Positions 1,842 through 60,876 of a stretch of DNA of 64,000 bases are shown here, piece after piece. The notes beneath the pieces were generated by a model. It ran no database searches. It was not told the origin of the DNA and saw nothing but the letters and a program-made list of their open reading frames with translations. The stretch's first letter is position 1. Each line of letters opens with the position of its first letter. The DNA lies in contig CH464491.1 in the NCBI GenBank assembly GCA_000002445.1, positions 5,024,001 to 5,088,000 of the forward strand. Reading direction: 5' to 3'. This DNA comes from Trypanosoma brucei. Its lineage: Eukaryota. The position numbers and the translations under genes were made by a program.

Positions 1842-1856
1842 GTGTTAAAATATATA
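1842..1856 (-). promoter_or_regulatory. VSG 3'UTR 16-mer element (for the C-terminal fragment at 1990-2230)
   Basis: GTGTTAAAATATATA on the plus strand is the reverse complement of the conserved VSG 3'UTR 16-mer TGATATATTTTAACAC. Confidence 0.7.
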
Positions 1857-1989
1857 AAATATTAGGAGTTTTATCCAAATATCAAATTAAATAAATTATC
1901 TTATAATCGTTATAGTGCTATAAAATTCATAAAGACAACATCTATGAAAGCCAATTTTTTATTAAAAAGGAAACTGCCATTTCGGCTCT

Positions 1990-2230
1990 TTTCTCTTTCT
2001 TAGTCATATTCACCCTATTTGCCTTTTTTCCAGCCGCAATTCTTTTTATCATCCTTTGTTTTCGTCCTCACAAGCTTGTTGATTAGTGCCACGTTGGGTA
2101 CCCTTTTCTTTTCTTCCCATATTTTCCTTCTCCTTTTCCTGCTTTGTCTGCTTTTTCTGTTTCCTTTTTGCCTTCCTCACTCAATGTGCACTTTTCACCA
2201 TCTTTGCCATCTTTGTTAAAAACACGCCCC
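1990..2230 (-). pseudogene. VSG: VSG C-terminal-domain fragment (no N-terminal domain, premature stop)
   Basis: Minus-strand translation gives ...KDGKDGEKCTLSEEGKKETEKADKAGKGEGKYGKKRKGYPTWH and ...KNCGWKKGK*, which resembles the VSG CTD motif HCGWKGENS of the neighbouring gene. The CTCAATGTGCACTTTT block is shared with copies at 33950 and 58640. Confidence 0.55.
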
Positions 2231-2528
2231 TGGAAGTTTAGCGGCACTAGCTTTCGGATGCCAGCGGCAGATGAGGCAGTCGTTCCTTAACTACCAAATG
2301 TGATAATCTCCTGCTTTAAAATAACCCTATTTTTACATTATTTCCTTTTGAAAGCAAATTGTTTTGTGCAACGAAACTGCCACGCGCCAGCGCTTTTTAA
2401 AAAATTTTAAAGCCGTGCTCAGCGCAAAATTCAGAGCTGAAATTCACATAAACGAAAAAAATTTTCAAAATGTGATAGCGAGGTATAGACTAAGAATACA
2501 AAGACGAAGATTCTTGAAGTTTGAAGAA

Positions 2529-2541
2529 GGTTTAGGGTTTA
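2529..2541 (+). repeat. Telomere-like G-strand hexamer/heptamer remnant (GGTTTAGGGTTTA)
   Basis: Direct read. It lies about 70 bp from a C-strand remnant at 2610-2623 in the opposite orientation. Confidence 0.4.
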
Positions 2542-2609
2542 CGTAAAAAAGAGCCGCTGATTCATTAAAAAAGTGGCGAATTAAAAAAAATTAATTAAAA
2601 AATTAATAA

Positions 2610-2623
2610 CCCTAACCCTAACA
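2610..2623 (-). repeat. Interstitial telomeric repeat remnant (CCCTAA)2 on plus strand, TTAGGG on the gene strand
   Basis: Plus strand reads AACCCTAACCCTAACA. A second degenerate copy, CCTAACCCTAAA, is at 2795-2810. Confidence 0.6.
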
Positions 2624-2908
2624 CTTTTTAGCCTATTTTTCTTTCTTCCTTTTTTATTTCATTTTTAATAGAACTTTGAGAATCAATTACAAAATTCCCT
2701 AAAAGTTTTGATTCTTTTTAAAAATTTAAAAAAAAATAAAAAATAAAGAAGATCAAAAAAATAATCCAAAATTTGTGAAAACTCAATAATAAAAAACCTA
2801 ACCCTAAAAGTTCAAAACATTCAAAAATAAAAAAATGAGAAATTTTTTAGCTATCAGAAATTTTTTTTACAGAATCAGACAACCAAAAAAATTCTCGGTC
2901 GAATTTAG

Positions 2909-2942
2909 GTGTTAAAATATATCAGAAGTTTTCAAGTAGCAA
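2909..2942 (-). promoter_or_regulatory. VSG 3'UTR 16-mer (2909-2924) and 8-mer (2935-2942), with a C10 homopolymer at 2963-2972
   Basis: GTGTTAAAATATATCA and AGTAGCAA on the plus strand are the reverse complements of the conserved TGATATATTTTAACAC and TTGCTACT elements. On the gene strand the order is 8-mer, then 16-mer, as in VSG mRNAs. The G10 run (a C-tract on the gene strand) sits between the stop codon and the 8-mer. Confidence 0.85.
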
Positions 2943-2982
2943 AAATTTCTTTAAAAAATTGAGGGGGGGGGGTGAATTTGTT

Positions 2983-4422
2983 TTAAAAAAGCAAGGCCAC
3001 AAATGCGGCAGAAACCACGCTGAGGGCGAATTGCTTGTCTAGGAGAATAGAGGAATAACGGCATTTATAAGTTCCTTTATCAGATCCATCACTATTTTCT
3101 CCTTTCCAGCCACAGTGTTTTGTTCCACCCTGATTTGCTGCCTCGCACGCCGTCTGGTTTTGAAAGCTGCTGCACACAGGTTTGGAAGTATTATCCCCGC
3201 CTTTCTTTTCTTCTGTTTTTTCTTCTGAGTCTTTTTTCTTAGCTGGTTCGCCTTCTGCTATCTTAGCTTCCTTTTTCATGGAAGCAAGTTGCCTCGCCAA
3301 GGCCTCTGTTAGCTTCCCAATATCTGTTTCAGATTCGAGATGCAGACCTTCTGATGTTTTATCTTTGTTTATTTTAGGCTTAAGGTTGTTGATTTTTTTC
3401 CACAGTCGCTCCTCAAATTTGCTGCCGCCTTCACCATATGCCGCTTTTATGGAAGCATCGAGCAGACTTGGTGGCGTCGTCATCGTGTCTTCTGAGTTTT
3501 CCAGTCCTGGTAAGGATCTGACTAGTTGCCTTTTGAATAAGTCGCTTGTTGCTACGGCGTTGTAGTCGTTTGCTGTAGATGAGCAATGCTTCTGTTTGAA
3601 GTGATCTAGTAGTAGTTTGTTTGCGTCATTAGCATTGGTTATATTAGTTTTCAGGACGTCGCTGGCCACCGCATATTTTAGATCTGCATTGGCTCCATCG
3701 CCTGACCAGGCTGTTGCTTCGTTTGATTGTACCGCGCTGCCGATTTTGATTATCGAATTGAACGTGAGTTTGCCTGTGTCTTGGGTTATCCCTGTGCTTA
3801 CACAGTTAGTGTTGCCGCCGCCGTGCTTACAATTTATTGTTACTTCTGTTATTGGAGTCAGCTCGGGCAGTAACATGTTTTCGGATTCGTTCGTGGGGTC
3901 AAATTTTGTCCTTTCCTCGGTCAGCTGTACCTTTGCGCATTCGTCTGGCATGGCGGTGCCTGCTGTTTTTGTTGTTAGTGACGTCGCAGTGAACTGGCCT
4001 GCCCCCGTTCTCGCCGTTAACTCTGTTTTGCCTCCGGCCTGGCTGAGTTGTTCGATTAGTGTTATCGCTCGGGCCGCAGTTGTTAGTTTTGGCTCATGGT
4101 CGGCCAGTAATTTGCGGCCTGCCTGTGCCGCAGCTCGGCAGGTTTGAAATATTTCGCCTGTCGCAGCTAAAGCTGGTAACGATTTGCTCTTTAGATCATC
4201 GTCGCCGGCTGTGGCGGCAATCGTTAGTTTTAAAATCTGGTCTGTCATAAGCGCCAGATTAGCCTCTGCTCGTTCCTGTTCCTCTGTATAAAAAGCCAGG
4301 GCGTTGTGCAGCCGCATCGCGCACTCGCAGCCGCTGTCGCACTTCACCGCTTTTGACGCGCTTGTTTTGTAGGTTGTAATGCACAGTGCCGCTATCCAGC
4401 TTGCGGCAAGTGCGGCAGCCAT
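2983..4422 (-). CDS. VSG: Variant surface glycoprotein, intact 479-aa ORF (a-type N-terminal domain; C-terminal GPI signal ...SSILLDKQFALSVVSAAFVALLF)
   Basis: A single ORF with an N-terminal hydrophobic signal (MAAALAASWIAALCITT), a Cys-rich C-terminal domain (HCGWKGENSDGSDKGTYKCRYSS) and a hydrophobic GPI-addition tail. The 16-mer and 8-mer 3'UTR elements follow. Confidence 0.9.
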   Translation of the reverse strand: MAAALAASWIAALCITTYKTSASKAVKCDSGCECAMRLHNALAFYTEEQERAEANLALMTDQILKLTIAATAGDDDLKSKSLPALAATGEIFQTCRAAAQAGRKLLADHEPKLTTAARAITLIEQLSQAGGKTELTARTGAGQFTATSLTTKTAGTAMPDECAKVQLTEERTKFDPTNESENMLLPELTPITEVTINCKHGGGNTNCVSTGITQDTGKLTFNSIIKIGSAVQSNEATAWSGDGANADLKYAVASDVLKTNITNANDANKLLLDHFKQKHCSSTANDYNAVATSDLFKRQLVRSLPGLENSEDTMTTPPSLLDASIKAAYGEGGSKFEERLWKKINNLKPKINKDKTSEGLHLESETDIGKLTEALARQLASMKKEAKIAEGEPAKKKDSEEKTEEKKGGDNTSKPVCSSFQNQTACEAANQGGTKHCGWKGENSDGSDKGTYKCRYSSILLDKQFALSVVSAAFVALLF

Positions 4423-17352: not shown

Positions 17353-18792
17353 TCATTTCGGACATTTGCAGTCATCCTTGTTCTTACTCTTGCGTATTTC
17401 TGTTGTTGCAGCTCCATCTCCTGCTCCTGTTCCTGCTGTGTTTGTCTGCTCTTCTCCCTCTTTAGGTTTGCAGTCTCCTTTTGTGTCACTTTCCCCTTTC
17501 CATTCGCATTTGCCTGCATTTTCGCATGTAGTTTTGTTGCTTTTGTGGAGGTCGCATTCTTGTTTTTTTGCGCTTGGCTTCGTTGAGGTCACTGTCGCCT
17601 GGTTTGTAGCAGCTTTTGCTTCCACAAGTGTTTTATGGAGGTTGGCGTGCAATTCTTGTGCATCGCTTTTGATCTCATTTACCTTTTCAGCTATTGCGTG
17701 TTGCTGGCTTGTGGTTGAAGTGGCTGCCGCTAGATCGTCCGCCAGTTCACGCAGCTGCCGTATCCATGGGATTGTGTCCAGTTTGTCTGTTGCTGTGTTG
17801 CCGACATCTGTGTATCCTACGCAGACTCCCTTGTTTTGGGATGCGTCGCAGTCAGTGTTTTCAAATGCGCCAAGGTAAGCTGCTGTGTCCTGCAGGTTAA
17901 ACGAAGCTTTGACTGCTGTTACCATATGCAGTATTGTTTGCGCGTGTAGCGGTGCTGCTGTTGGCTTTGGACACGTCTTAATCAGGTTGGCGAACATTGT
18001 TGGTGCGTTGGTGCCGTCGGCTGCCCATTCCGTGCCTACACTAGGGAAGTCGGTGCATGGTTTCGCCACCTGAGTTGCTATGTTTCCTTTTGCGCAAAGA
18101 CAAAGCAGAGCCGCCGCGATTGATGTCGCTTTGTTGTTCCGCAACGTTATCTCGGCAAGTTGCATCCAGGCTGGCTCTAGGTCCGCCTTTGAACGCTTTT
18201 TGGTTGTCGATTGTTCTATCGCTATTATTTTCGTCCCCGTAGATGGGCTGCTTTAGCCGTTTCAGAGCGTCGGTTGCTGTTTTCAATTTCTTGCTGTTTT
18301 CTAACAGGGTCCATCTATCCCTCAGCCGCTTTGCTTTCTTTGTTGCTTGGTATATTTTCTTGCTGGCGCGTGGTAGTTTGTGTTTCGGGAGGTCATTTAG
18401 GTTCCACTTTGCTGCCTCCTCCGTCACTTCTGGCTCCGCGTTTAGCTCCTTCGCCGCTTTGAGCCAATCCGCCCACAGAGTTGTAAAGTCGTTGTCGCTC
18501 CGGTGTGAGTCAGGCGACGTGTCTTGCCACTGAAGTGGTTCGGCTTGTTCTTTTTGAACTGCTGACGCCATGTGCTGTCCGCTAGGCTGAGGTTTAGCTT
18601 GATCATCTCGCTGTATATGGATGGTTGTGTCTGTTGGGTTGCTGGCAAGTCGAAGGTCGCCGCCGTCCACTGCACAATTGTGCAAAGCTTCCGAAATATC
18701 TCGATATTTGCGTAGTCATTGATTTGCGCGTCTGCTGGTGATATCGCCAACGTGACTGCTACTGCTACTGCCCAAACCTCAATTTGGTCCAT
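17353..18792 (-). pseudogene. VSG: VSG pseudogene (b-type N-terminal domain; frameshifted; lacks GPI signal and canonical 16-mer)
   Basis: ORFs 18442-18792 (MDQIEVWAVAVAVTLAISPADAQINDYANIEIFRKLCTIVQW...), 18041-18685 and 17353-18165 (ending ...KDDCKCPK*) are in three frames. Their N-termini resemble the b-type VSG at 62593-63982. No hydrophobic tail follows the last Cys cluster. Confidence 0.75.
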
Positions 18793-33460: not shown

Positions 33461-33779
33461 CTACGACTCTAACTTGATATCCATAAAAAATGGGAAATGA
33501 ACTAAATTAATATATTACTTATTTTAATATACAATTACCCTCCTACATTCCACAGACAGTCCTCTATAATACAAATGTTTTACAAGTTCTTATTTTTTAA
33601 AAATTTTAATGAATTACACGTTTTGCAAGTTAGAAGTTAAAAAGTGTTAATATATATAACAAATTTTATAAAACTTCAAAAAATTATCTCAGAACAAAAA
33701 AATCATAAATTTAATAAAATTGAGCAAATATCCTTCGAATGATCGAATGCTACCAAACTTACAAAAGCAACAGGCATCA

Positions 33780-33960
33780 GAGCTAATTTCTTATTGAAAA
33801 TAAAACTGGAATCCTTGCAGTCTTTTTCATACTATTAACAGTTGCTGCCCTTTTCACAAGCTTGTCGATTAGTGTCATGTCTGGAACACTTATCTTTCTT
33901 CTCATCTTCCCCTCCTTCTTTCGCTTCTTCTTTTTATACTTTTTTTATGCCATCCTCACT
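33780..33960 (-). pseudogene. VSG: VSG C-terminal-domain fragment (module copy 2)
   Basis: It shares the CTCACTCAATGTGCACTTTTT block and upstream flank with the fragments at 1990-2230 and 58440-58700. GTGTTAATATATATA (16-mer-like) is at 33644-33658. Confidence 0.5.
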
Positions 33961-34247
33961 CAATGTGCACTTTTTATCGTCGTTTCCTTTGGGATTGAAA
34001 ATGCGCCCATGACAGTTGAGCGGCTTTAGACGTCTGCTGTCAGGGGCAGATCTGGAAGTCATTCCTTAACTGCTGATCGTAATAATCTCCTAGTTCCGAA
34101 TATCTCTCTTTTTAGATTATTTTTCATTTAAAAGCTATTCGTTTCGCGCAGCTACACTGGCATGCGTCAGCGTAAAAAAAGCCGAATGCACCGCAAAGAA
34201 AAACCTGGCAAATTATAAAAAAGCCAAAAAAAGTAAATTAAAACCCG

Positions 34248-34288
34248 AAACCTAACCCCCTAACCCTAACCCTAACCCCAACCCTTTT
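34248..34288 (-). repeat. Interstitial telomeric repeat remnant, about 6 degenerate CCCTAA units on plus strand
   Basis: CCCGAAACCTAACCCCCTAACCCTAACCCTAACCCCAACCC. A weaker CCTAACACTAAAACCTA is at 34389-34406. Confidence 0.7.
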
Positions 34289-34570
34289 TTTCTCTTTTGT
34301 CGGTCCTATTTCTGTTCGGGCAGATTGTTCAAAAACTTAATTAAATTCGTTACCTCGGCCCAAAACAAAAATTAATTAAAAATAAAAAACCTAACACTAA
34401 AACCTACAAAAATCAACAGGAAAAAGGAGAAAAAATTTAGCAATCATCAAAAAAATTTGGTAGGCTCAGGTAGCCAATATATATATATATGTATATAACG
34501 ATTTCTCGGAGATTTTAAAGGGGTTAAAATATATCAAATAGCAAAGTTCGTTTAAAAATAGGGGAATTTT

Positions 34571-36086
34571 TTAAAACAGCAAGGCCATAAAAGCAGAAAA
34601 CACGTGAGGAACAGAAACTCTCAAATTTCTAGAAAACGATTTTTCATCTTTCTTTTTGTTTTCAGCTTTTGGAAAGCATTTAGGGTCTTTTTTATCATCA
34701 AAATCACAGCCTTTTTTATCTTTGCAGGGTTTCACTTGTTTTATGCTTTTTGCATTCATCTGCTGATTTGGCTGGTTCTGTTAATTTGTCTGTGTTTGTG
34801 GGACATGAGGGACTTTCTTGTTTTTTCTTCTTGACTTCTTGTTCGTTAATGAAACGGCGAACAGTGTAACATGTTGCTGCATCTGCGAGTTCTTTGGGGT
34901 TGGTTATTGTTTTCAGTTGTCTGTCGCCATTGCCGCCTACGGCGGCTTTTGGTGGTGTCATGTCGTCAAGCGACTTTCCTACAGCGTTTTTAATTTCGTC
35001 TCCATTTTCACCGATGACTTCCTTTAGTAAGTTATCCACTTTGGTTTTCGTGGCATCGGCGTACTTGGCGCCTTCGCCGTCTATGGCTTTCGCTAATTGT
35101 TCTTTCAGCCTCGGCGCCATTATCAGTGCTTTTATATCCAATGTTGCCGACAGTGTGCCTATCGCTGCTGCAGCGTCTTCTAGCTTGGCTATAGCTGCTG
35201 CTGCTGCTGCAATAGTTTTTTTGTTGGGGATCGCGGTAGCTTCCGAGCTGTCGGAGTATTTGCTGTCGCTTGCGTCAGTTTTACGTGTAAGCGTTATTGT
35301 TGCTTTGTCAAAAATCTTGCCGCCCTTTAAGGCTAGCACTGTGCTTGCGCCGTTGCTGCAGCCGTTGTTGGCTCCGTATTTCTGCCCGTTCGTCCCTGCG
35401 GCTGCGCAAAGTGTGAGCTCTGCGTCTGCTGCTGGTGGCGGCATATCTCTCGCTTTCAGCCCAATCAACACCAACTTATTTGTGCCTTGTTCATTTTGTG
35501 CGTGGCTACCTGTATGGTCTTCGTTCGTCCCGTCGGCTTTTTTGCATGTGCCGTGTCGGTTTGGTGTCAGCTTGGGTTTTGCCTGAAGATTCGTGCCGTT
35601 CGCGTACGTGCTTACTGCTGTGACAAAGTTTGTGGATTCTATTTGCGTGTTGCTGAGCTCTGCAACCGCTAGCATTTGTCGTTCTAGTTGTGCTGCTGCT
35701 GTTGTTCCTGCGTTTATAACGGCTGCTTTTCTTTTTACTGAGTTTAATACTTCACCAGCTGATTTTAAAAGAGACACCGCTAACAGCTTGGCTGTCAGTG
35801 CCTTCGCCCCTGTCTCTGTGCTCGTTACGGCGGGCAATTTTGTTGCTTTTGCGGTTGCCTTTTCCGCGTTATCAATTGCTGTGCTGATCAAGGCTTGGGC
35901 ATTGGCTGCAATATCTCCCAAATAGTATGCTGCGTGGCACGAGGTTGTTACTGCTGGTCTTTTGCGGTGTAATGCGGTAGCTACAGGCATTGCTGTTAAA
36001 GCAAAGATTAGTATTAACGCTTGCGGGGTTCGTTCTATCTTTACTATGGTGTCGGCCTTGCCATATTGGACGTTACTGCTGGTCAT
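34571..36086 (-). pseudogene. VSG: VSG pseudogene with a single frameshift near its 3' end (paralog of the intact VSG at 55190-56644)
   Basis: 456-aa ORF 34716-36086 ends ...SADECKKHKTSETLQR*. The following 62-aa frame, 34571-34759, continues ...KGCDFDDKKDPKCFPKAENKKKDEKSFSRNLRVSVPHVFSAFMALLF. The intact VSG at 55190 has the same CTD uninterrupted (SADECKKHTTEQACKGEKGCDFDEKKDPKCFPNKK...). GGGTTAAAATATATCA is at 34521-34536. Confidence 0.8.
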
Positions 36087-37659
36087 TGCTCTTTGCTATA
36101 CAAACTACAGAAAGTCAAAGTTGGCTTTTAAGAAGTATACAACAAGAGTACACCGCTGTTTTTAGCGTAGAATGCATAAGAAATTCGGATCATAATTAGA
36201 AGCTTAGCCTAGTGCTTGCTTTTATTAATTTCGGATACAACCTTGCTACGCAGTTGTTGCTGGATACACCATAGTTTCTGCGTCTGCTACAGTTTTACAC
36301 GACTTGTAAAACTGCTTTAATTGTCTATAAGAATGTTGTTACTGCACAATAATCAGGTTTTCTGTGAATAAAAAGGGTATCTATTGCCTGTTACCCTGCT
36401 TGTTTTGTTGATATACTAAGATCTGAATGCATGTGTTTATTTTTAACCTGCCTACTGTGAGTGAATCAACGGCCTGAAAGTATTATGTCTCTATTAATCA
36501 GCTCAGGTACTGTCTGTTCTATTCTTTGTTCCCCAGCTTTATTTAACATTTAGCGTATATGAATGCATCTGTATCACTGTTCGTCCCTTTTCAGCGAGCT
36601 CCGCCGCTGCCGCCAAAGTAGCCTCGAAAAACACTTCTTGTGTTATGGGGCGCCATCCTGTGTCTCCTTCTTCCGCTAGAGTTGATTTATGCGTAGTGGT
36701 CATAACTTTATTAGTACGAGTATGCCGCTGCAAGTTAATCCAGCTGCCTCTGTCAGTTACATTTTCCCTATTAATTTCTATTTTTAACGTTTCCGACACA
36801 GAAAGCCGTAAATAGAATTAAATGCTGATGGTAAATAGCACCACTTCACTTCTTTTTTTCCTCTACGGTGAATTGAATTTCACTCTTATATGTAAAATCA
36901 TTTATAATATCCAACGTATATCGATTAATTTTACTTTTCATACATTTAATGTGCTTGACTATAAAAAAACGAACAAGCTGCTTCTATCTGATAAATTTCC
37001 CATTCCTGTATGTTTAGGGGGAGTTGATGCTTACTGTTTCTACACTATCTTGTAATATAGTGACACTTTTACAGTTTTTTTCGTTTTATTTTTGAACGTG
37101 TTCTTTCTCTTTCTGCTCCTATCTAAATTTGGTGCTGCTTTTGGAACTTTTGCAAGTTTTTTTCGGTCATCAGCTGTCTGTTTTCTCAAAGCATTGCCAG
37201 TTGCACTAATTTTTGTACTAGACCTACTTTTAGACATATTAGCCACCCTTAACCGGCTATAATCACCGTATCACATTGCTCTTCATCTATCATGGTGGCT
37301 ATATGGAAATAATTCAATCTTCAAATGGTTTGTTGTAGCATACAGGTAATGGTAGGGTTAGGCACCTTCCAGTTGCATTGGTTCATTATGTTAGTTATAA
37401 CGACCCAATTTGGCTATGCGGTCTCCCTGTCACTATATGTTTATCTCACTACATAATCTCCTTGTAAATAATGGTATCCATCGTCATATTTGTGTTTAAA
37501 ACTGCACAAATTTCCTCTCTATATTCATCCTTTTATCTTTCTGCGTTTTATGTGCTAACATTTCTCCCGCTCTTCCTCTTACTTACTATCCAACTAACTC
37601 ACTTACCCCACGGTGACCTCGGCATTGGTTTGAATACTTTCATTTTTGACTTCCAGTCG

Positions 37660-38033: not shown

Positions 38034-39458
38034 TTATGCTAGAAGCAAAAATGCAAGCCAAAGAGGCGCCTTGTTAACGACAAAAGAATTGCTTCCGGTG
38101 GTGTTTGTGTTTGTCGTTTTCCCATCTTTCCCTTCTTGGCAATCGTTTTCTCGCTTAGATTTCACCTCCTTTTTCAACTCACACTTTTTGTCTTTTTCGT
38201 TAAAAGTGCAGTCTTTATCCTTTAAGCTTTCACAGGCTTTTTGATCACCCCCTGCTTCATTGCAAACTTTTTTTGCCGGCTCTTGTGTTGCTTTGTCTGC
38301 TTGTTGGCTTAGAGCTTTTGTGGGTTGTGGCGGTTGAGTAACTTCGACCGTCGCTTGCAAGTATGTTCTCAACGCTGCTGTTTTTAAGTTTGTGACCTCC
38401 GCTGCAATACGAGCATTTTTGAGTGAGTTTTTGTGTGCTGCTTCCAGTCTGCTTATTGCCGCTGTGAACTTGCTGAGCCACGGTATTTGCAGCTTGCCGG
38501 TTGCATCTAACGCCTTATACAGCACGCAGTCTCCGTTGGCGGCGCCGTTGCATTGTGTCTCGTCGCCTTTGCCTAGCATTATTTTGCCTGCTGTCGTGGC
38601 GCCCGCTTTGTGTTTTAGTGCCGCCGTGAAAGTCGCTGCTGCTGCCTTTATGTCTGCTGCCGTCGTTTTTGTGTGTGGTATTAATGGGCATTTTTTTGCT
38701 AAGGCCGCCGCCGCCGTTGCCGACGCACTGGCCGTGCTGTAGGTAATGCCGCTTAGTGCTGTCCCGGTGCATGCTGGTGATGACCCTCCGCTCGCGGAAC
38801 ACAGGCATAGGAAATCGCTCATGAACGACCTGCCCGCCTCGCTGTTGCTGGGATCGTTGCCGCCGCAAGCTGTCGCTGCCGTGCCGTACGTCTTGCTTCC
38901 GGCCTTATCCTCGCCGGCTTTATCGCCGAAAAGAATGTCGTTAAAGTCGGCTTGTGCCTCTGCCTGGGTGGTTGGTTCGACTAAACCTTTTTCAAGTGCC
39001 TTAGCTTTTTCTAGACTGCAATTGATTAGCTTGTTTGCTGTTGTCCGCATGGGGCTGTTTGGTAGTCGAAGTATTTTGATGCTGTCTATTTCCAAGTTGC
39101 CAGCAGAGATGAGGTGCTTGGCTTTCTGCCATTTAGGCCTGTTTTCTTTGTACTGCTGTGGTTTATCGCCGTCACTTGAATCATCTTCAAACTTTTGGTC
39201 GTACATGCTGTCTTCTGCTGTAGAAAGGTTAAGTTCGATCAGCTGTTGTATCGCGCGCGTCACCTCTTCCTTGTCTTTTTGCTCTGGAAGATCTGCTTCT
39301 GCAGTTAGGATCTGACGGATGCCGCACATCATATTGAACGCTTGTGCGTTATCGTTAGCTGCTCCTTTGCAGCTGCCGGCAAGGAGTGTTATTGCTACCG
39401 CAATCTTAACTTCGGCTACCGATAGCCTTGGTGAGCTTTGAAAATTTTGTTTCTTCAT
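38034..39458 (-). CDS. VSG: Variant surface glycoprotein, intact 474-aa ORF (C-terminal ...TTGSNSFVVNKAPLWLAFLLLA)
   Basis: Single ORF with an N-terminal signal (...VAEVKIAVAITLLAGSCKGAAND), FLCLCSASG-type motifs and a CTD Cys cluster (CNEAGGDQKACESLKDKDCTFNEKDKKCELKK). Confidence 0.85.
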   Translation of the reverse strand: MKKQNFQSSPRLSVAEVKIAVAITLLAGSCKGAANDNAQAFNMMCGIRQILTAEADLPEQKDKEEVTRAIQQLIELNLSTAEDSMYDQKFEDDSSDGDKPQQYKENRPKWQKAKHLISAGNLEIDSIKILRLPNSPMRTTANKLINCSLEKAKALEKGLVEPTTQAEAQADFNDILFGDKAGEDKAGSKTYGTAATACGGNDPSNSEAGRSFMSDFLCLCSASGGSSPACTGTALSGITYSTASASATAAAALAKKCPLIPHTKTTAADIKAAAATFTAALKHKAGATTAGKIMLGKGDETQCNGAANGDCVLYKALDATGKLQIPWLSKFTAAISRLEAAHKNSLKNARIAAEVTNLKTAALRTYLQATVEVTQPPQPTKALSQQADKATQEPAKKVCNEAGGDQKACESLKDKDCTFNEKDKKCELKKEVKSKRENDCQEGKDGKTTNTNTTGSNSFVVNKAPLWLAFLLLA

Positions 39459-41322: not shown

Positions 41323-42862
41323 TTAAAACAGCAAGGCCACAAAAGCAGCAGTCATACTCAGAGTCAATTTGTTATTGAGGAGAAAACTTGAATCCTTGTA
41401 CTCGCCTTCAATCCAACTACAAACCGCTTTTTCACTTGGTTTTACGTCCTTGTTTTCCGGTTCAAATTCTTTTTTAGTGTGCTTGGTACACCTATTTGAA
41501 TCAGTTTTGCCATTTTCCCCTGCTTGGTTTTTTGCCCCTTTTTCTGCTTTTTGTTTGGATTCCTTATCCAATTTTCACTTCCTTTTTCCGCGTTCTTCAA
41601 CAATCAGTTTGCATGGCTTTTCGCACTTGTGTAACCCTTTTGCTTCACAAGTTGAGTCTGTTTCGTTTATTTTTGTGGTCTGTTGGTTTGATTTGTTTTC
41701 TAAATTTGTGGTCTGTAGTTTTAACTTTTGTATATTTCGGTTCTTGTAGTAAGCCAAGACTTTCTGCAATGTTTCTAGACTACTGATGCTACTTAGCGCT
41801 ATTTCCTTCCCTTCATCGGCGTCAGGGTCTTGGACTTGCTCTTTCGTTTTACTGCTGTCGTATTTTTCGGACATGACTGTGCTACCTCAAAGCATTGCTT
41901 CTATTTTTCGTTTAACAGCGGGTTCAGGAGTTCGCGAACCGTTCTTCTTCAAAACTATTGACCTGTAGAGAGATACGAAAGTTTGGTCGTCTTTCAGTTT
42001 AAGTCCGTCTTTGAACTCATACTTTTGGGGTTGCTTATTTGTGGCCAAGTATTCCTGACGAGCTGCATGAAGTAGAGGCTCTGCATCTGCTTTGGTCCTT
42101 ATTTTGGTTGTTCCCTTCATTTTCATGCCTGTGCCGTCAAGATAGAAAATAACCGCCGAAACCTTTGGTGTTACGCCAATAGTGTGTCCGGTGTTTGCAT
42201 TTAGCATATAGTTCGTGGCTTTCGCTTTTGTTAGAGCTCAGACGCTACTTCCACCGGTTGCCTCAACATCAGCATCGTCGCTTTTGATCGCGCCCTGATA
42301 GCCGGCTGCATCAAAGCCTGTAACTGTCGGTTCAGCTGCTGTTAGCCCGGTCGTTTCGAGCACACATCCAGGCGCGTCGGTTGAGAGGTCTGTATTGTGT
42401 CTTCTGAACACATTGGTCCCGGTTTGCCTCGAGGAGAGAGTGTGTAGTGTCGCTGGCGATCTGGCTCGTTTATGTCACGAATTATGCTATCGCCGCTTGC
42501 GCTCTCGCCGCATCCCGGATCGCTGTTAGCTGTATTGCCTTCGGCTGTCCCAGAGAGGTCCTCCAAGGCAGTTTCCCCCGCTGAGTGTAATACGCTAGGA
42601 GCGCCTTCTCCTCCGGGGTCTGTGAGCCGTCACCATTTTTTTCTATTATTATTTTTGCTTTGTATAACTGCTTTAGCTCATCGTGCGCAGTTGTCGCGTC
42701 ACCTTTTACAATTGCGGATGCTTTTTGTTGTATCTTGTCGAGTTCTGCCGCCAACTGGCATGCACCGGTCCATGCAGTATATTTGATGCCGCCGCCAGGT
42801 GTACAAGACATGCTTTTGGCCGCGAGTAGCGTAACAAATAACGGCAGTGGAGTGGTTTGCAT
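41323..42862 (-). pseudogene. VSG: VSG pseudogene (at least 4 frames, internal stops)
   Basis: N-terminal ORF 42482-42862 (MQTTPLPLFVTLLAAKSMSCTPGGG...). C-terminal ORF 41323-41571 ends ...KAVCSWIEGEYKDSSFLLNNKLTLSMTAAFVALLF. The 16-mer-like GCGTTAAAATACATAAA is at 41254-41270. Confidence 0.8.
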
Positions 42863-55189: not shown

Positions 55190-56644
55190 TTATGCTAGAA
55201 GCAAAACTGCAAGCAAAGGAAGAGCGTTGATTACAATAGATCTTCTCCCTGTTGAGGTTGTAGACACTTTTTTATTTGGAAAGCATTTCGGGTCTTTTTT
55301 CTCATCAAAATCGCAACCTTTTTCACCTTTGCAGGCTTGCTCCGTTGTATGCTTTTTGCATTCGTCTGCTGATTTTTTCGGTTCTTCTAGTTTGCCTGTT
55401 TTGGTTGGGCAAGAGGGGTTTTCTTGGTTTTTCTTTTTTTGCTCTTCCTCGTCGATAAAATTTTTGATAGTGTAATACGTCGCTGCTTTTGACAGCTCCT
55501 CAGGGGCGTTTATTGAATCAAGTTTTTTAGCGCCGTCTGAGCCTGCTGCTTTACTTGGCTGAAAGGTGTTCAGTAATTGGGTTATTTGTGTTTTGATTGA
55601 GTTTCTTTCTTTGCCGAAAAGTTCTTCGGTTGTGTGTTTAACTTTTTCCTTTAAATTTGGTTGCTCGGCTGTCGCTTCGTGGCCTCCCAAAGCTTTGGCT
55701 ATTGCGTGCCCTGCGGAAGCGGCATCAAAGGCGCTTTCAATGGTAGCAGGTGGTGTTATCGTGCCGAGTTGTGTTGCAGCGTGAACCATTTCAAGTACCA
55801 GCGCAAGTTCTGCTTTTATTGTCGCTTTATTGGGCGTCGTCGCATCGTCGCCGATTTCGTTGTAGGCAAGCGGGGCCGAGTCGCCTGTTGTGTGGGCAAC
55901 TGCTACCGTTGCCGTGAATACTTGCCCTCCTTTGAATCCTATGTTAGTTGCCTGGGTTGAAGTGCAGCTTGCCGTGTTTGGTGCGCCGCTGCTGACCGAG
56001 TTGCTGCCGCATATTGTTAGGTAGGTGCCGAGCGCGCTTCCTGGTGGTGTTGGTGTCACTGTCACTATCGTTATGGCGTTTTTGTGGTCTGCATTATGAT
56101 CGTCGGTGCTCGAGTCCTTTTCCCTGCTGTCGTCCTGTCCGACACAATGAGCTTTAAGAGCCGCGTCCAGCTTGGGCTTGAGTTGGCCTTTTGTCGCTGT
56201 CGCCGTGCTTGTCGTGGCTGTGGCCATATTTAGATCTTGTAGGTGCAGCTGTGAGAGTCTGCTGATTGCTTCCTGGCTCCCTGCGAGCCGGCTCAGCGCT
56301 TCGATGCCTTTTAATAACGCTGGGGTATTTGCGGCTAGCTTATCGTTTGCTTCTGCGGCTTTTTGAATATAAATTGAGCGCAGATAAGCTGCTGCCCAGC
56401 CCGCGTTTGTGTTAACACCGTTGGCGATGACGTCAGGCTTAGAAGCTGTAGTCAGCATCGTCTTGACAGCTTCTTGTGTGGATGTGATTTTGGTCCTTGC
56501 GGAGTCCGCCATCTGCCGCAGCTGCGTTGCTACGTCGCATGCGCTTTTAGCCTTTTTTGTTGGTGTTTTTACAGCTGAAGTTGTTACAACTGGTAGGCAA
56601 AGGGCTATGCTTACGAAAGTCAATGCCTTGAAGTTTGCCAACAT
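55190..56644 (-). CDS. VSG: Variant surface glycoprotein, intact 484-aa ORF
   Basis: N-terminal signal MLANFKALTFVSIALCLPVVTTSA. CTD ...SADECKKHTTEQACKGEKGCDFDEKKDPKCFPNKKVSTTSTGRRSIVINALPLLAVLLLA. It is a paralog of the frameshifted gene at 34571-36086. Confidence 0.85.
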   Translation of the reverse strand: MLANFKALTFVSIALCLPVVTTSAVKTPTKKAKSACDVATQLRQMADSARTKITSTQEAVKTMLTTASKPDVIANGVNTNAGWAAAYLRSIYIQKAAEANDKLAANTPALLKGIEALSRLAGSQEAISRLSQLHLQDLNMATATTSTATATKGQLKPKLDAALKAHCVGQDDSREKDSSTDDHNADHKNAITIVTVTPTPPGSALGTYLTICGSNSVSSGAPNTASCTSTQATNIGFKGGQVFTATVAVAHTTGDSAPLAYNEIGDDATTPNKATIKAELALVLEMVHAATQLGTITPPATIESAFDAASAGHAIAKALGGHEATAEQPNLKEKVKHTTEELFGKERNSIKTQITQLLNTFQPSKAAGSDGAKKLDSINAPEELSKAATYYTIKNFIDEEEQKKKNQENPSCPTKTGKLEEPKKSADECKKHTTEQACKGEKGCDFDEKKDPKCFPNKKVSTTSTGRRSIVINALPLLAVLLLA

Positions 56645-58082: not shown

Positions 58083-58439
58083 TTTAATATGTATTACAGC
58101 AAAAAATGAATTAAAAGAGTAAATAAGTGTAACCCTAATTTTTTATACACTATGATAATAGTATCGTGAAGGTGTTGGACACAGTAAAACACTTTCATAC
58201 ATTACATATTTTTTAAAAATTTCATTCTTTCAATATTTAAGAAATTTTGCAAAGTTTCATCAAAAACGTGTTGCAATATATCCAATGTTAGCAAATTTAG
58301 TAAATTCTCAAAAAATGTCCAAGTTTCATAAGGTTTATTCGTTTTATAAAATAAAACAAATATCCTTATAATAATAAAATGCTATAAAATGTACAAAAGC
58401 AGCAGCCATACTTAGAGCCGATTTCTTATTGACGAGAAA

Positions 58440-58700
58440 CTGGAAGAGTGGAATTTGAAACTTTTATCACCTCAACTTGCATCATCTCCTTTCCAGCCAC
58501 AAAATTTGTTTTTTCCTACTGGTTTGGGACTGTATGCCGCCTCACATTCCGTATGTGCATTAGGATCAGCACATGTCTTTCCATTCTTATTTTTCCCATC
58601 ATTCCCTCCTTCTTAGTTTGCTTCTTTTTCTACTTTCTTCTTGATTTCCTCACTCAACGTGCACTTTTTGCAGTCGTCGATTTTCGGTTTGAAAACGGAC
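58440..58700 (-). pseudogene. VSG: VSG C-terminal-domain fragment (module copy 3)
   Basis: It shares CCTCACTCAACGTGCACTTTTTGCAG and the following GTTGAGCGGCTT flank with copies at 2200 and 33950. The 16-mer-like GTGTTGCAATATATCCA is at 58268-58284. Confidence 0.5.
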
Positions 58701-59002
58701 CTCTAGCAGTTGAGCGGCTTCAGCTGTTGGGTTCCAGCGACAGATTGTGTAGCCGCTCTTTGATTTCTAATTTTGATAATTGGCCATCCCCCAAATGTTA
58801 GTATTTTTTCCTTATTTCCCCTTTAAAAACAAATCGTTTCGCGCGGCGAAACTGCCACCCGCCAGCGTATACCGAAAGATTTAGGCCGCTCGCAGCCCAA
58901 AACTCAGAATTTAAATTCATAAAAGCTCAAAAAGTTAAATCGAAACAAGCTGCTAGTGATGTAGATTCGGCTAATTTAAACAAGGATGTTTGCTGCGTGA
59001 AT

Positions 59003-59016
59003 AAGGGTTAGGGTTG
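59003..59016 (+). repeat. Telomere-like G-strand remnant (AAGGGTTAGGGTTG)
   Basis: Direct read. It lies about 100 bp from the C-strand array at 59117-59181, in the opposite orientation. Confidence 0.55.
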
Positions 59017-59116
59017 TCATAAAAAAAAAGATCCGCTTCATCATTAAAATTTAAAAAAACTAAAGTCACAACGCTTCACTGCTAGTAAAAAAACTTACTA
59101 GTAAGAGGAGAAATAA

Positions 59117-59181
59117 CTCTAACCCTAACCTTCCTAACCTCCCTAACCCTCCATACCTCTCCCTACCTACCGCCTACCCTC
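59117..59181 (-). repeat. Interstitial telomeric repeat remnant, about 9 degenerate CCCTAA-like units on plus strand
   Basis: CTCTAACCCTAACCTTCCTAACCTCCCTAACCCTCCATACCTCTCCCTACCTACCGCCTACCCTC. Confidence 0.7.
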
Positions 59182-59349
59182 TTTTTTGGTTTGTTAGACA
59201 AAAAACAACAAGAAAATAAAAGAAATTTTTTAACTATCAAAAACAAAATTTTACACGCACAGACGGCCAAAAAAAAATATTCCCGGGAAAATTACGTGTT
59301 AAAATATATAAAAATCTCAGAAAGAAAAAAAGAGGGGGAAAAATTTGTT

Positions 59350-60876
59350 TTAAAAAAGCAAGGCCACATATGCGGCAGAAACCATCATGGCGAATTGTTT
59401 GTTTCCTAGAATAGAGGAATCTTTGCATTTATCCTCAATCCATCCACAATAAGCTTTTTCACCAGGTTTTTTGTCCCTCATTCTCCTTTTCACAGTTTGC
59501 TTTATCTTTATGTTTTGTACACCTCTCTGAAGCAGTATTTGTTTCTTTTTTTGAGCTTGTGCTACAGGAACGCCGGTTGCTGTCGCTTTTTTTGGCATCA
59601 AATTTACATTTTTTGGTTTGTTCGGTTTCTGTTGTATTATAACTGCATATAGGATTTGCGTTACATGCAGCAACTTCTGTTAGTTTGCTTCAAGTTTCTT
59701 CTGCTTTTTTACGCCTAAGAACCCTCTGAAAGTTCCTTGTGGTAATCTGGAGCTTTTTTGTTTGCTTTTTTGTTTAAAATTTGTAGTTTCTTTTCTTCCT
59801 TGCGAGCTAGTTGCTGATAGTCTAGCTGCATGGTTAGCTGTAGGTCTATTTGGCCACGTGTCGGAGCTAGTGCTTTGTCCCCTTTAAGAGCTTTTACGAA
59901 GCCACTGTCGCTGCCGTTGGCTGGTATTTTGAAAAGCTCGGTTGCTATTTTCTTTATGTCGTTTTCTTCTTTGGCGGGCTTGTATTGGTAGAAAGAGTTT
60001 ATTGTGTCTTTGAGCTTTCTACCTACTGCGTCCGGTTTCAATAGCTTCTCTAGTCCGTCGGCGTCGAGCGTTTGCGCTGTATCGGTCGCAGACAAGTAAT
60101 TATGTGTTGCTGTGTAAGACGATGCTATCGGCTTGAGTATATCCGTCTCCGTTGCTGCTTTTTCGATGTTGTTTGTTGCAAAGCCCCCGGTGTTTGCTAT
60201 TTCTATTAAACCTTCCAGCAGCAGCATGTTGCCGGTATCCTTTTTGTAAGCCGTTAGGACAGCTGCGGTTAAAGCACAGCTGTTTGCTGTTGCTCCCGTC
60301 AGGGCGGTCGAAGCTGAGAACACTTGAATTGCCGCCTCTTGTAAGTTTGTGGCGTCGGGGATTTCGGCTGTTAAGTCAGTGGCTTTGCAGCCATTGCTAG
60401 CCGCTTCGTTTGACTCCGTATTTGGCTGTGTGCGTGCTGAAATACAGAAGCCGTTAGATGGGTTTGTGCGCTGCGCATTCTTGAACAAGAGCATTAGTTC
60501 GTCTATTCTGCCACTTGCGTAAGAGACTTGGCCTGCAGCCTTTACGGCTGCTGTCATTTTTGAAGTGGGTTCAGTTAGGTGTCGGTCGCCTTCGCCTTGC
60601 AGGTAGGCTGCCAGTATCAGAGGTTGCGTTGCCCATCCCGGTGATTTCACTGCACATGCAGTTAGCCTTGCTGTAGCAGCGTTGATTACTTTCAGATAGC
60701 TAGCTGTGTTTGACAGCTTTAGCCGCGTTCCGAGCTGCGGCTTTTTTTGCTTTAGCAGAGAAATCGCAAGTTTTCTGTGCAGCGGCACTGCTTAGTGCAT
60801 CACCTGCACTGGCTGAGCCCTCGTGTGCGTTAATGTACACTAGTCAAAATAGTGTAAGGCCTGTTCTAATCATGTT
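59350..60876 (-). pseudogene. VSG: VSG pseudogene (frameshift between NTD ORF 59715-60788 and CTD ORF 59350-59673; stop in signal peptide)
   Basis: CTD ends ...KAYCGWIEDKCKDSSILGNKQFAMMVSAAYVALLF. The NTD is 357 aa. An upstream Met at about 60874 is followed by a stop (MIRTGLTLF*). The 16-mer GTGTTAAAATATATA is at 59297-59311. Confidence 0.75.

What the first reader, a model, noticed from the sequence alone, without database searches (positions are those of the whole stretch)
1842..2982. About 1.1-kb composite module with interstitial telomere repeats, present three times, each immediately 3' of an ...ALLF-type VSG
The three regions 1842-2982, 33644-34570 and 58268-59349 share the same ordered blocks when aligned by eye. 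In gene orientation these are: VSG 3'UTR of the upstream full-length gene; degenerate TTAGGG repeats; an A-rich spacer (AAAAAAGAGCCGCTGATTCATTAAAAAA versus AAAAAAGATCCGCTTCATCATTAAAATTT); a conserved GC-rich core (CGCTGGCG(C/G)GTGGCAGTTTC on the gene strand); roughly 150 bp of conserved flank; a roughly 200-bp VSG C-terminal-domain fragment with no N-terminal domain; and a second 3'UTR with a 16-mer. In T. brucei, telomere repeats normally follow only telomere-adjacent VSGs (expression-site or minichromosomal). A conserved internal copy of VSG-3'UTR plus TTAGGG suggests the unit arose from a formerly telomeric VSG end. It would then have been captured internally by telomere healing, fusion or gene conversion, and propagated by segmental duplication within the array. 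I do not recognise the GC-rich core from memory. It could be a recombination junction or a small functional non-coding element.
Basis: partly seen in the sequence, partly recalled or inferred. Interest (0 to 1): 0.7.

Follow-up and report, generated by a model that had tools for sequence, protein, structure and literature searches.

The report
Fossil telomere-type flank behind array VSGs
Three old, diverged copies of a roughly 1-kb non-coding unit sit behind silent surface-antigen (VSG) genes of Trypanosoma brucei; each carries short telomere-like repeats and a broken VSG tail, and is most likely a decaying recombination scar from a former chromosome-end VSG, not a working element.

Summary
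The window is a Trypanosoma brucei VSG array, with all genes on the minus strand. The three regions are homologous from the last 35-85 nt of the upstream VSG (…ALLF tail) through to a second 3'UTR. BLAST E-values are 1e-24 to 1e-43 at 67-72% identity.

Copy B has lost the spacer and inverted block, and its core is degraded.

A separate T. b. equiperdum assembly carries copy A at about 96% identity, hexamers included, so it is not an assembly artefact. That locus also has a second, stacked module with a different junction.

The upstream VSG bodies are unrelated, so the unit spread as a 3'-end unit and not by whole-cassette duplication. The fragments carry stops and frameshifts, and the module diverges at about the intergenic rate. 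The GC core is not specially conserved and shows no RNA family or structure signal.

Best reading: a neutral relic of a telomere-proximal VSG 3' flank. Telomeric origin fits orientation, spacing and literature, but no telomeric reference sequence could be reached to test it directly.

The parts
2983..4422 (-). VSG A. Intact 479-aa ORF ending …VVSAAFVALLF*. Only its last ~85 nt (2983-3068) belong to the repeated unit.
   Evidence: PF10659 C-terminal domain; closest relatives are T. brucei VSGs; the A-C BLAST hit reaches 3068
2909..2982 (-). VSG A 3'UTR with a C-run and the canonical 16-mer (TGATATATTTTAACAC, 2909-2924)
   Evidence: one of the three best three-way conserved windows
2602..2908 (-). 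Module A T-rich tract. It holds a module-specific box (2837-2860) and TTAGGG-like blocks at 2794-2811, 2697-2702 and 2602-2628.
2540..2601 (-). Module A AT-rich spacer.
2528..2539 (+). Module A short inverted telomere-like block (GGTTTAGGGTTTA on the + strand, i.e. CCCTAA in gene orientation)
   Evidence: TTAGGG at 2532 on +; homologous position in C and in the second equiperdum module
2393..2527 (-). Module A ~130-bp unique segment before the core. Non-coding.
2373..2392 (-). Module A GC-rich core CGCTGGCGCGTGGCAGTTTC
   Evidence: not specially conserved; no structure signal
2226..2372 (-). Module A flank of unknown origin. Stops in all frames; no Pfam hit.
1910..2225 (-). Module A orphan VSG C-terminal-domain fragment. 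Matches PF10659 positions 16-103, carries in-frame stops and frameshifts, and ends …FMNFIAL*.
1842..1909 (-). Module A second 3'UTR with a 16-mer-like element (1842-1856, 1 mismatch). The next cassette's 70-bp repeat follows (17-mer at 1635).
34571..36086 (-). VSG B pseudogene. The ORF 34716-36086 is followed by a frameshifted C-terminal domain ending …VFSAFMALLF* (34571-34597).
34240..34570 (-). Module B: 3'UTR (16-mer 34521-34535), a (TA)n run, a T-rich tract and the longest hexamer tract (34240-34288, ~7 units)
34006..34239 (-). Module B remnant of the spacer region, degraded core (34153-34172) and flank. The A-rich spacer, the inverted block and ~180 bp are deleted.
33644..34005 (-). Module B orphan C-terminal-domain fragment (33745-34005, PF10659 positions 16-104, in-frame stops) plus a second 3'UTR with a 16-mer-like element (33644-33658)
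59350..60788 (-). VSG C pseudogene. The ORF 59715-60788 is followed by frameshifts, and the tail reads …MVSAAYVALLF* (59350-59376).
59117..59349 (-). Module C: 3'UTR (16-mer-like 59296-59310), module box (59220-59243) and a degenerate hexamer tract (about 59117-59182)
58998..59116 (-). Module C AT-rich spacer (59017-59116) and inverted telomere-like block (58998-59016; TAAGGGTTAGGG on the + strand)
58700..58997 (-). Module C pre-core segment, GC-rich core (58848-58867) and flank
58268..58699 (-). Module C orphan C-terminal-domain fragment (about 58377-58699, PF10659 positions 16-103, in-frame stop and frameshift) plus a second 3'UTR with a 16-mer-like element (58268-58282)

Best explanation
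**What it is.** The module is a decaying, non-functional recombination scar. It is the 3' flank of a VSG that once lay next to a telomere, now fixed inside a silent array and joined to the leftover C-terminal end of the VSG it displaced.

**Shown**
- A, B and C descend from one ancestral unit. That unit ran: VSG GPI-signal tail, 3'UTR, T-rich region, sense-oriented TTAGGG-like repeats, AT-rich spacer, short inverted CCCTAA, about 300 bp of unique DNA, then a C-terminal-domain fragment cut at one shared point, then its own 3'UTR.
- The unit is old, with 30-40% divergence between copies.
- It is now attached to unrelated VSG bodies.
- It carries stops and frameshifts, and it evolves at about the intergenic rate.

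**Inferred: how it arose**
- A break in an array VSG (or a break-induced replication event) was repaired by copying from a telomeric donor. Copying started at upstream homology and ran through the donor VSG into its telomere-proximal flank.
This left that domain orphaned.

**Inferred: how it spread**
- The unit is bracketed by two VSG 3' ends. Gene conversion or unequal exchange between VSG 3' ends then moved, stacked or deleted it.
- This also explains why it travels with the …ALLF tail.
For: **Single origin of A, B and C**
- Pairwise homology from the VSG tail to the second 3'UTR.
- The same truncation point in Pfam PF10659 in all three fragments: position 26, or 16 when 10 more codons are included.
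- The core and flank are found nowhere else in the window or in L001.

**Spread as a 3'-end unit**
- VSG A, B and C show no similarity outside the tail.
- The strongest three-way conservation is in the ALLF tail and stop, the 16-mer, and KCTLSEE.
- An identical 70-bp-repeat 17-mer lies 200-270 bp after each module.

**Telomere-type flank**
- The hexamers are in the VSG sense orientation and start 170-360 nt after the stop. Real expression sites show 200-1590 nt (PMC2567434).
- TTAGGG-like repeats 3' of telomere-proximal VSGs are described (PMC3708902, citing Aline & Stuart 1989).
- T-rich and G/T-rich sequence downstream of expression-site VSGs is noted in PMC10686619.

**Real and recurrent**
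- T. b. equiperdum locus L001 carries module A at 96% identity, tracts included.
- L001 also has a second, stacked module whose 5' half resembles C. Its post-spacer DNA and its truncation point (PF10659 position 7) are different.
- A third equiperdum contig (L011) has an ALLF VSG with the module-type flank after the 16-mer.

**Neutral decay**
- In-frame stops and frameshifts in every fragment.
- Window-to-equiperdum identity is 96% in the module, 94.5% in upstream intergenic DNA and 89% in the VSG CDS.

**Repair background**
- T. brucei lacks non-homologous end joining and uses gene conversion or break-induced replication at VSGs (PMC12137147).
Against: - No bona fide telomeric VSG flank (expression site, metacyclic site or minichromosome) could be fetched. 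Homology of the T-rich box, spacer, core or flank to real chromosome ends is therefore untested.
- The TTAGGG-like tracts are short (2-7 units). In principle they could have arisen by telomerase action at an internal break, with no transfer from a telomere.
- The origin of the ~300 bp between the inverted block and the C-terminal-domain fragment is unknown.
- The repair route (synthesis-dependent annealing or break-induced replication with template switching) is inferred only from the architecture.
- Neutrality rests on one pairwise comparison. The module is, if anything, slightly better conserved than the neighbouring intergenic DNA (3.7% vs 5.5% mismatches).
- The census is small: about 85 kb from two genomes.
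Confidence: 0.6

Rival explanations
1. Relic of a head-to-head telomere-telomere fusion. A VSG-bearing chromosome end (VSG to TTAGGG) fused to another end whose terminal sequence was the core and flank plus an outward-facing, truncated VSG cassette. Most repeats were later lost, and the joint became internal.
For: - In gene orientation, A, C and the second equiperdum module all have (TTAGGG)n, then a 60-110-bp spacer, then (CCCTAA)1.5-2 at homologous positions.
- That is the strand arrangement expected of fused ends.
- By my rough estimate (not a tool result), an 11-of-12 match on that strand within about 1 kb is unlikely by chance, about 0.01-0.02.
Against: - The inverted block is only 9-14 nt. 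It is embedded in a conserved non-telomeric block (…AGCGGCTCTTTTTTACGTAAACCCTAAACC…).
- A 60-110-bp AT-rich spacer lies between the two arms, which a simple fusion does not predict.
- Two other isolated + strand telomere-like 13-mers occur elsewhere in the window (37345, 57081), so short matches on that strand are not unique to modules.
- Copy B lacks the block.
Confidence: 0.15
2. Functional 3' element. The telomere-like flank gives an array VSG downstream homology to expression-site telomere-proximal DNA (or a telomere seed). The gene could then be copied whole, with its own C-terminal domain and 3'UTR, or a break could be healed next to it. The orphan C-terminal-domain fragment would serve as a spare 3' donor.
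For: - The architecture is kept in at least four or five separate copies across two genomes, despite 30-40% divergence.
- The module is slightly more conserved than the neighbouring intergenic DNA.
- Template homology decides repair outcome at the active VSG (PMC12137147).
- RAP1 binds telomeric and G/T-rich DNA downstream of VSGs (PMC10686619).
Against: - Two of the three upstream VSGs are pseudogenes, and all fragments carry stops.
- The tracts are degenerate and short.
- Copy B has lost a third of the unit without replacement.
- The difference in conservation is small and rests on one pair.
- No binding or expression data could be examined.
Confidence: 0.12
3. The GC-rich core and flank encode a small non-coding RNA or a protein-binding site, and the telomere repeats are incidental.
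For: The core matches 19 of 20 positions between A and C, and 20 of 20 between the window and equiperdum.
Against: - No Rfam family at the gathering threshold, or at E up to 1. No tRNA.
- The consensus folds are weak, with a covariation term of about 0 on both strands.
- The core is degraded in B (14-15 of 20) and is not among the top conserved windows.
- Translations have no Pfam match.
- The exact 21-mer occurs by chance in four unrelated bacterial contig groups.
Confidence: 0.04
4. Assembly artefact or chance similarity of low-complexity DNA.
For: Telomere-containing reads are known to be of lower quality in nanopore data (PMC11739655). The region is AT-rich and T-rich.
Against: - Independent T. 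b. equiperdum assembly GCA_003543875.1 has the same module with the same tracts.
- BLAST E-values are 1e-24 to 1e-43 with the low-complexity filter off but over mixed-composition sequence. nhmmer scores are 224-380 bits.
- Shuffles give 0.13-0.33 expected tracts against 4-7 observed.
Confidence: 0.02

Closest known systems
Telomere-proximal 3' flank of expression-site and minichromosomal VSGs ('TTAGGG-like repeats 3' of telomere-proximal VSGs', Aline & Stuart 1989 as cited in PMC3708902; VSG-to-telomere distance 200-1590 nt in PMC2567434)
   Same: - It lies directly after the VSG 3'UTR.
- It is T-rich and G/T-rich.
- Degenerate TTAGGG units are in the VSG sense orientation, starting 170-360 nt after the stop.
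   Different: - It is not at a chromosome end. The tracts are only 2-7 units, and are followed by unique DNA, an orphan C-terminal-domain fragment and further VSG cassettes.
- Sequence homology to a real telomeric flank was not testable here.
VSG gene fragments encoding only the C-terminal domain in the silent archive (a class recalled from the TREU927 genome analyses, from my own knowledge; C-terminal-domain similarity and 3' donation are discussed in PMC3708902)
   Same: - PF10659 match without any N-terminal domain.
- Its own 3'UTR with a 16-mer-like element.
- Pseudogenic.
   Different: Here the fragment is a fixed part of a larger composite unit. It has a shared truncation point and is preceded by telomere-like repeats instead of a 70-bp repeat.
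Interstitial telomeric sequences in other genomes, e.g. telomere-like repeats beside internal SICAvar/pir islands in Plasmodium knowlesi (PMC9131526) and the head-to-head fusion site on human chromosome 2 (own knowledge)
   Same: - Short, degenerate telomere repeats inside chromosomes.
- They lie next to variant-antigen genes that are subtelomeric in relatives.
- A and C show a head-to-head strand arrangement.
   Different: - A different organism and gene family.
- The arrays here are still subtelomeric.
- The inverted arm is only 9-14 nt and is separated from the main tract by a spacer.
[quoted passage not shown]
   Same: The same kind of imprecise recombination product: one VSG unit copied into another, leaving a truncated remnant.
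   Different: Those cases were described in telomeric expression sites. This one is in a silent array and carries the telomere-type flank with it.

Membership tests
Telomere-proximal VSG 3' flank | Lies immediately 3' of a VSG 3'UTR, with TTAGGG-like units on the VSG sense strand | tested here: met
   all gene-strand tracts lie 170-360 nt after the stops of VSG A, B and C
Telomere-proximal VSG 3' flank | Distance from VSG to the repeats falls within the range seen at real expression sites (200-1590 nt, PMC2567434) | tested here: met
   A ~175 and ~355 nt; B ~283 nt; C ~170 nt. This is at or just below the lower end of the range.
Telomere-proximal VSG 3' flank | Runs into a long perfect (TTAGGG)n tract at a chromosome end | tested here: not met
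   The tracts are at most ~7 units, and are followed by unique DNA and more VSG cassettes
Telomere-proximal VSG 3' flank | Sequence homology to flanks of known telomeric VSGs (expression sites, minichromosomes) | not testable with these tools
   No T. brucei telomeric sequence was reachable. VSG2 and VSG21 were put into a profile search but were not returned. Look-ups of TREU927 proteins found nothing.
Interstitial telomeric sequence, fusion type | Head-to-head (TTAGGG)n(CCCTAA)n arrangement | tested here: inconclusive
   An inverted 9-14-nt block is present in A, C and the second equiperdum module, but it lies across a 60-110-bp spacer and is absent in B
VSG C-terminal-domain-only gene fragment | Match to the VSG C-terminal domain (PF10659) with no N-terminal domain upstream | tested here: met
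   Fragments A, B and C score 45-60 bits over PF10659 positions 16/26-104. The upstream 300+ bp has no VSG or Pfam similarity.
VSG C-terminal-domain-only gene fragment | Own 3'UTR with the conserved 16-mer | tested here: met
   16-mer-like elements at 1842, 33644 and 58268, with 1-2 mismatches
Structured non-coding RNA (for the GC-rich core) | Match to a known RNA family, or a conserved secondary structure with compensatory changes | tested here: not met
   No Rfam hits. RNAalifold gives -11 and -8.6 kcal/mol with a covariation term of ~0.
Recent segmental duplication of whole VSG cassettes | Homology extends through the adjacent VSG body and upstream region between copies | tested here: not met
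   No BLASTN or BLASTP similarity between VSG A, B and C outside the tail. Only the window-to-equiperdum pair shares at least 7 kb.

The most novel reading that the evidence does not exclude
The modules are footprints of sequence flowing from telomeric sites, including expression sites, back into the silent archive. They may still act as telomere-mimic 3' homology, or as TRF/RAP1-bound sites, that bias which array VSGs are copied intact into an expression site. If so, a sizeable class of …ALLF array VSGs would form a distinct, telomere-derived tier of the repertoire with its own activation behaviour.
Probability: 0.12. Interest if true: 0.7.

Novelty: new member of a known kind. Interest (0 to 1): 0.35.

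Why it matters
If the telomeric origin holds, these units record that VSG sequences move from chromosome ends back into the internal archive, not only from archive to expression site. Whether antigen genes assembled or used at telomeres are ever stored again is an open point in trypanosome antigenic variation.

A genome-wide census of such scars would give a direct, sequence-based way to count and date those events. The census would cover copy number, tail type, orientation and junctions.

The units also matter practically. Short internal TTAGGG tracts and orphan C-terminal ends can mislead the classing of VSGs as 'telomeric', and can mislead read mapping near VSG 3' ends.

As it stands, the evidence points to a neutral relic, so the immediate biological weight is modest.

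Tried and rejected
1. **Exact-protein look-ups.** Three intact window VSGs and the TREU927 protein identical to window 38037-39458 found no contig. The source chromosome and its position relative to the telomere could not be recovered.
2. **Search with the ALLF C-terminal domain alone.** It returned nothing because of the word-index limit, and one of the three searches was lost.
3. **Multiplexed profile search.** The profile held nine VSGs, including VSG2 (my recalled sequence, verified 476/476 against PDB 7p56) and part of VSG21. It was meant to reach real telomeric loci. The profile worked locally, but the database search returned only relatives of the first sequence plus one TREU927 VSG. 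No telomeric reference flank was obtained.
4. **Metagenome scan for the GC core.** It gave 9 contigs in 4 unrelated GC-rich bacterial groups with no flanking similarity, i.e. chance matches. One carries an unrelated cobalamin riboswitch.
5. **RNA tests.** Rfam, tRNA and consensus-fold tests of the core were all negative.
6. **Six-frame translations.** Translations of the spacer, core and flank against Pfam gave nothing.
7. **Inverted-repeat scan of the modules.** It found only low-complexity A/T arms.
8. **Hybrid-tail idea for VSG B.** I first thought its ALLF tail was a hybrid joined to a foreign C-terminal domain. The equiperdum VSG in L011 shows this C-terminal-domain class ends in ALLF naturally, so the idea was dropped.
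9. **Literature searches.** Searches for interstitial, degenerate or telomere-like repeats in T. brucei VSG arrays found no description. Aline & Stuart 1989 is not in the library, and my attempt to open the Marcello & Barry 2007 VSG-archive paper under the PMC number I recalled (PMC1950903) found nothing held, so prior description cannot be excluded.
Full report
**Setting**

The window is a Trypanosoma brucei VSG array. All long ORFs that look like VSGs are on the minus strand. The 479-aa ORF at 2983-4422 is 78-86% identical to named T. brucei and T. b. equiperdum VSGs. The ORF at 38037-39458 is 100% identical to an annotated TREU927 VSG. I use 'gene orientation' for the minus strand.

Yes.
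- TTAGGGTTAGGG with at most one mismatch occurs 7 times, against 0.13 expected.
- Tracts matching a hexamer array at 14 or more of 18 positions on the gene strand occur 4 times, against 0.33 expected. All are inside A, B or C.
- The regions align well beyond a generic 3'UTR: A-B 72% over 329 bp (E = 1e-43), A-C 67% over 478 bp (E = 4e-30), B-C 69% over 280 bp (E = 1e-24).
- A profile built from the spacer-to-flank segment finds only the modules in the window and in the related locus.
- The quoted A-rich strings and the GC-rich core are at the stated places in A and C.

**Anatomy**

In gene orientation each unit runs as follows.
1. The last 35-85 nt of the VSG ORF, ending …ALLF*.
2. The 3'UTR with the 16-mer.
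3. A T-rich stretch with a module-specific box (TTTCTGATAGCTAAAAAATTTCTC). The box is found only in A and C in the window, and in variant form in B and in the equiperdum copies.
4. TTAGGG-like units: three small blocks in A, about 7 units in B, and about 11 very degenerate units in C.
5. An AT-rich spacer of 60-110 bp.
6. A short inverted telomere-like block (AAACCCTAAACC in A, AACCCTAACCCTTA in C).
7. About 130 bp of unique DNA.
8. The GC-rich core.
9. About 150 bp of flank.
10. A VSG C-terminal-domain fragment.
11. A second 3'UTR with a 16-mer-like element.
12. After 200-270 bp, the same 17-mer of the next cassette's 70-bp repeat.

Copy B has lost items 5 and 6 and most of item 7, and its core matches only 14-15 of 20 positions.

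**One origin for A, B and C**

The three fragments match Pfam PF10659 from the same profile position to the end: position 26, or 16 when ten more codons are included. They therefore share a single ancestral junction. Three independent healing events do not fit.

All three fragments contain in-frame stops or frameshifts. Only VSG A is intact; VSG B and VSG C are frameshifted pseudogenes.

**How the unit relates to its VSG**

The bodies of VSG A, B and C show no detectable similarity to each other at the protein or DNA level. Homology starts only in the GPI-signal tail. The three best three-way conserved 20-nt windows are the ALLF tail plus stop, the 16-mer, and the KCTLSEE region of the fragment. 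The GC core is not among them.

The '…ALLF' link is therefore real: 3 of 4 ALLF ends in the window have the module, against none of about 12 other VSG ends. It arises because the tail is part of the unit. The unit is bracketed by two VSG 3' ends, which offers an obvious route for exchange between 3' ends to insert, stack or delete it.

**Independent evidence from another genome**

- One hit to VSG A lies on a 2.37-Mb T. b. equiperdum scaffold. At least 7 kb there aligns to window 9000-2134 at about 92%.
- That stretch includes module A, with the same hexamer blocks, spacer, inverted block and an identical core. This removes the assembly-artefact reading.
- Identity is 96% over the non-coding module, 94.5% over the upstream intergenic region and 89% over the VSG CDS. 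The module therefore behaves about like neutral DNA. At 92-96% this locus may be a diverged subtelomeric counterpart or a paralogue, so I do not claim strict orthology.
- The alignment breaks inside the C-terminal-domain fragment (window 2134 / L001 12126). In equiperdum the fragment continues into a different C-terminal domain ending …FVALLF. That is followed by a second module whose tail, UTR, hexamer region and spacer plus inverted block are most like copy C.
- The DNA after the spacer in that second module is unrelated, and its terminal fragment starts at PF10659 position 7. The same architecture has therefore arisen or been rebuilt at least twice, and modules can be stacked by recombination within C-terminal-domain sequence.
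- A short contig from an older T. equiperdum assembly has another ALLF VSG with the module-type flank after the 16-mer. The contig ends before any tract.

**The GC-rich core**

- It has no match in Rfam at either threshold, and no tRNA is present.
- Consensus folds on both strands are weak, with no covariation.
- Translations of the spacer-core-flank region have no Pfam match.
- An exact-match scan of metagenomes found the 21-mer in four unrelated groups of GC-rich bacterial contigs with no flanking similarity. That is about what chance predicts for a collection of that size.

I see no evidence that the core is more than part of a moderately conserved non-coding stretch.

**What it most likely is**

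Several lines fit the flank of a telomere-proximal VSG.
- The hexamers are in the VSG sense orientation, 170-360 nt after the stop.
- In Lister 427 expression sites the VSG-to-telomere distance is 200-1590 nt (PMC2567434).
- TTAGGG-like repeats 3' of telomere-proximal VSGs are an accepted marker (PMC3708902, citing Aline & Stuart 1989).
- T-rich and G/T-rich DNA downstream of expression-site VSGs is noted in PMC10686619.

The orphan C-terminal domain immediately downstream is what is expected if a copy of a telomeric VSG plus its flank was laid into an array gene and joined back without proper downstream homology. T. brucei has no non-homologous end joining and repairs VSG breaks by gene conversion or break-induced replication (PMC12137147). 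Imprecise 'cassette into cassette' products are already described at expression sites (PMC2567434).

I therefore favour an old recombination scar of telomeric origin that has since decayed and been shuffled among VSG 3' ends (confidence about 0.6). The repair route is inferred, not shown.

**Rivals**

- **Head-to-head telomere fusion relic.** The inverted block suggests it, but the block is very short, sits in a conserved non-telomeric context and is separated from the main tract by a spacer. Two further isolated telomere-like 13-mers on that strand occur elsewhere in the window.
- **Functional telomere-mimic homology or seed.** This cannot be excluded. It is weakened by the pseudogene status of two hosts, by stop-ridden fragments and by the large deletion in B.
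- **Artefact or chance.** Excluded.

**Limits**

- No bona fide telomeric T. brucei sequence could be reached, so the key homology test remains undone.
- The classical paper on telomeric VSG flanks is not in the library, and my look-up of the VSG-archive analysis under the PMC number I recalled found nothing held. The TREU927 genome paper was not looked up.
- My searches found no description of such internal modules, but prior mention elsewhere is possible.
- The sample is about 85 kb from two genomes.

**Verdict**

The components are all known kinds of sequence: a telomeric-type VSG flank, an interstitial telomere repeat and a C-terminal-domain fragment. Their fixed combination inside an array is a new member of that kind, not a new mechanism. 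Interest is modest (0.35). It would rise if a genome-wide census showed many independent junctions, or if binding or activation data showed the modules still matter.

Noticed in passing
window 2983-4422 (VSG A) vs protein P0005: An EATRO1125 VSG (1125.4312, 499 aa) is 100% identical to VSG A over 46% of its length, while other relatives are 71-86% identical. This suggests a mosaic or segmentally converted relationship between strains.
   Followed up: no
window 41323-41349 and downstream to 41020: A fourth …AAFVALLF* VSG end (a pseudogene with many stops) has a different 3'UTR after the tail. It runs straight into an (ATT)n / 70-bp-repeat region with no module.
   Followed up: yes
window 37345-37362 and 57081-57098 (+ strand): Two isolated telomere-like 13-mers (GGTAGGGTTAGGC, GTTTAGGGTTAGC) lie in the regions upstream of VSG B and of the VSG at 55190-56644. 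Including the one in module C, the + strand has 3 tracts against 0.41 expected.
   Followed up: partly
window 34476-34500: A (TA)n microsatellite is inserted between the 16-mer and the T-rich tract of module B only.
   Followed up: no
window 18361-18380 (+ strand): A 17-of-20 match to the GC core lies on the opposite strand, inside a VSG-like ORF. It is probably chance.
   Followed up: no
L001 12126-13450: The T. b. equiperdum locus has a stacked second telomere-like module and a second orphan C-terminal-domain fragment where the window has only ~430 bp. The breakpoint lies inside the C-terminal-domain fragment.
   Followed up: yes
L001 (CM010675.1 2,288,743-2,310,008, reversed, of 2,365,359 bp): The equiperdum VSGs here are on the record's minus strand, about 55-76 kb from its right end. 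If that end is the telomere, the genes and their sense-oriented TTAGGG tracts point away from it. The tracts then could not be an in-situ healed end of that arm.
   Followed up: no
window 1635, 33379, 58024: The identical 17-mer ATAATATTTGTATATAC (part of the 70-bp repeat, reverse strand) follows each module at a similar distance.
   Followed up: partly
L006 3736-3951: One of the chance metagenome hits carries a cobalamin riboswitch. It is unrelated to the finding.
   Followed up: no
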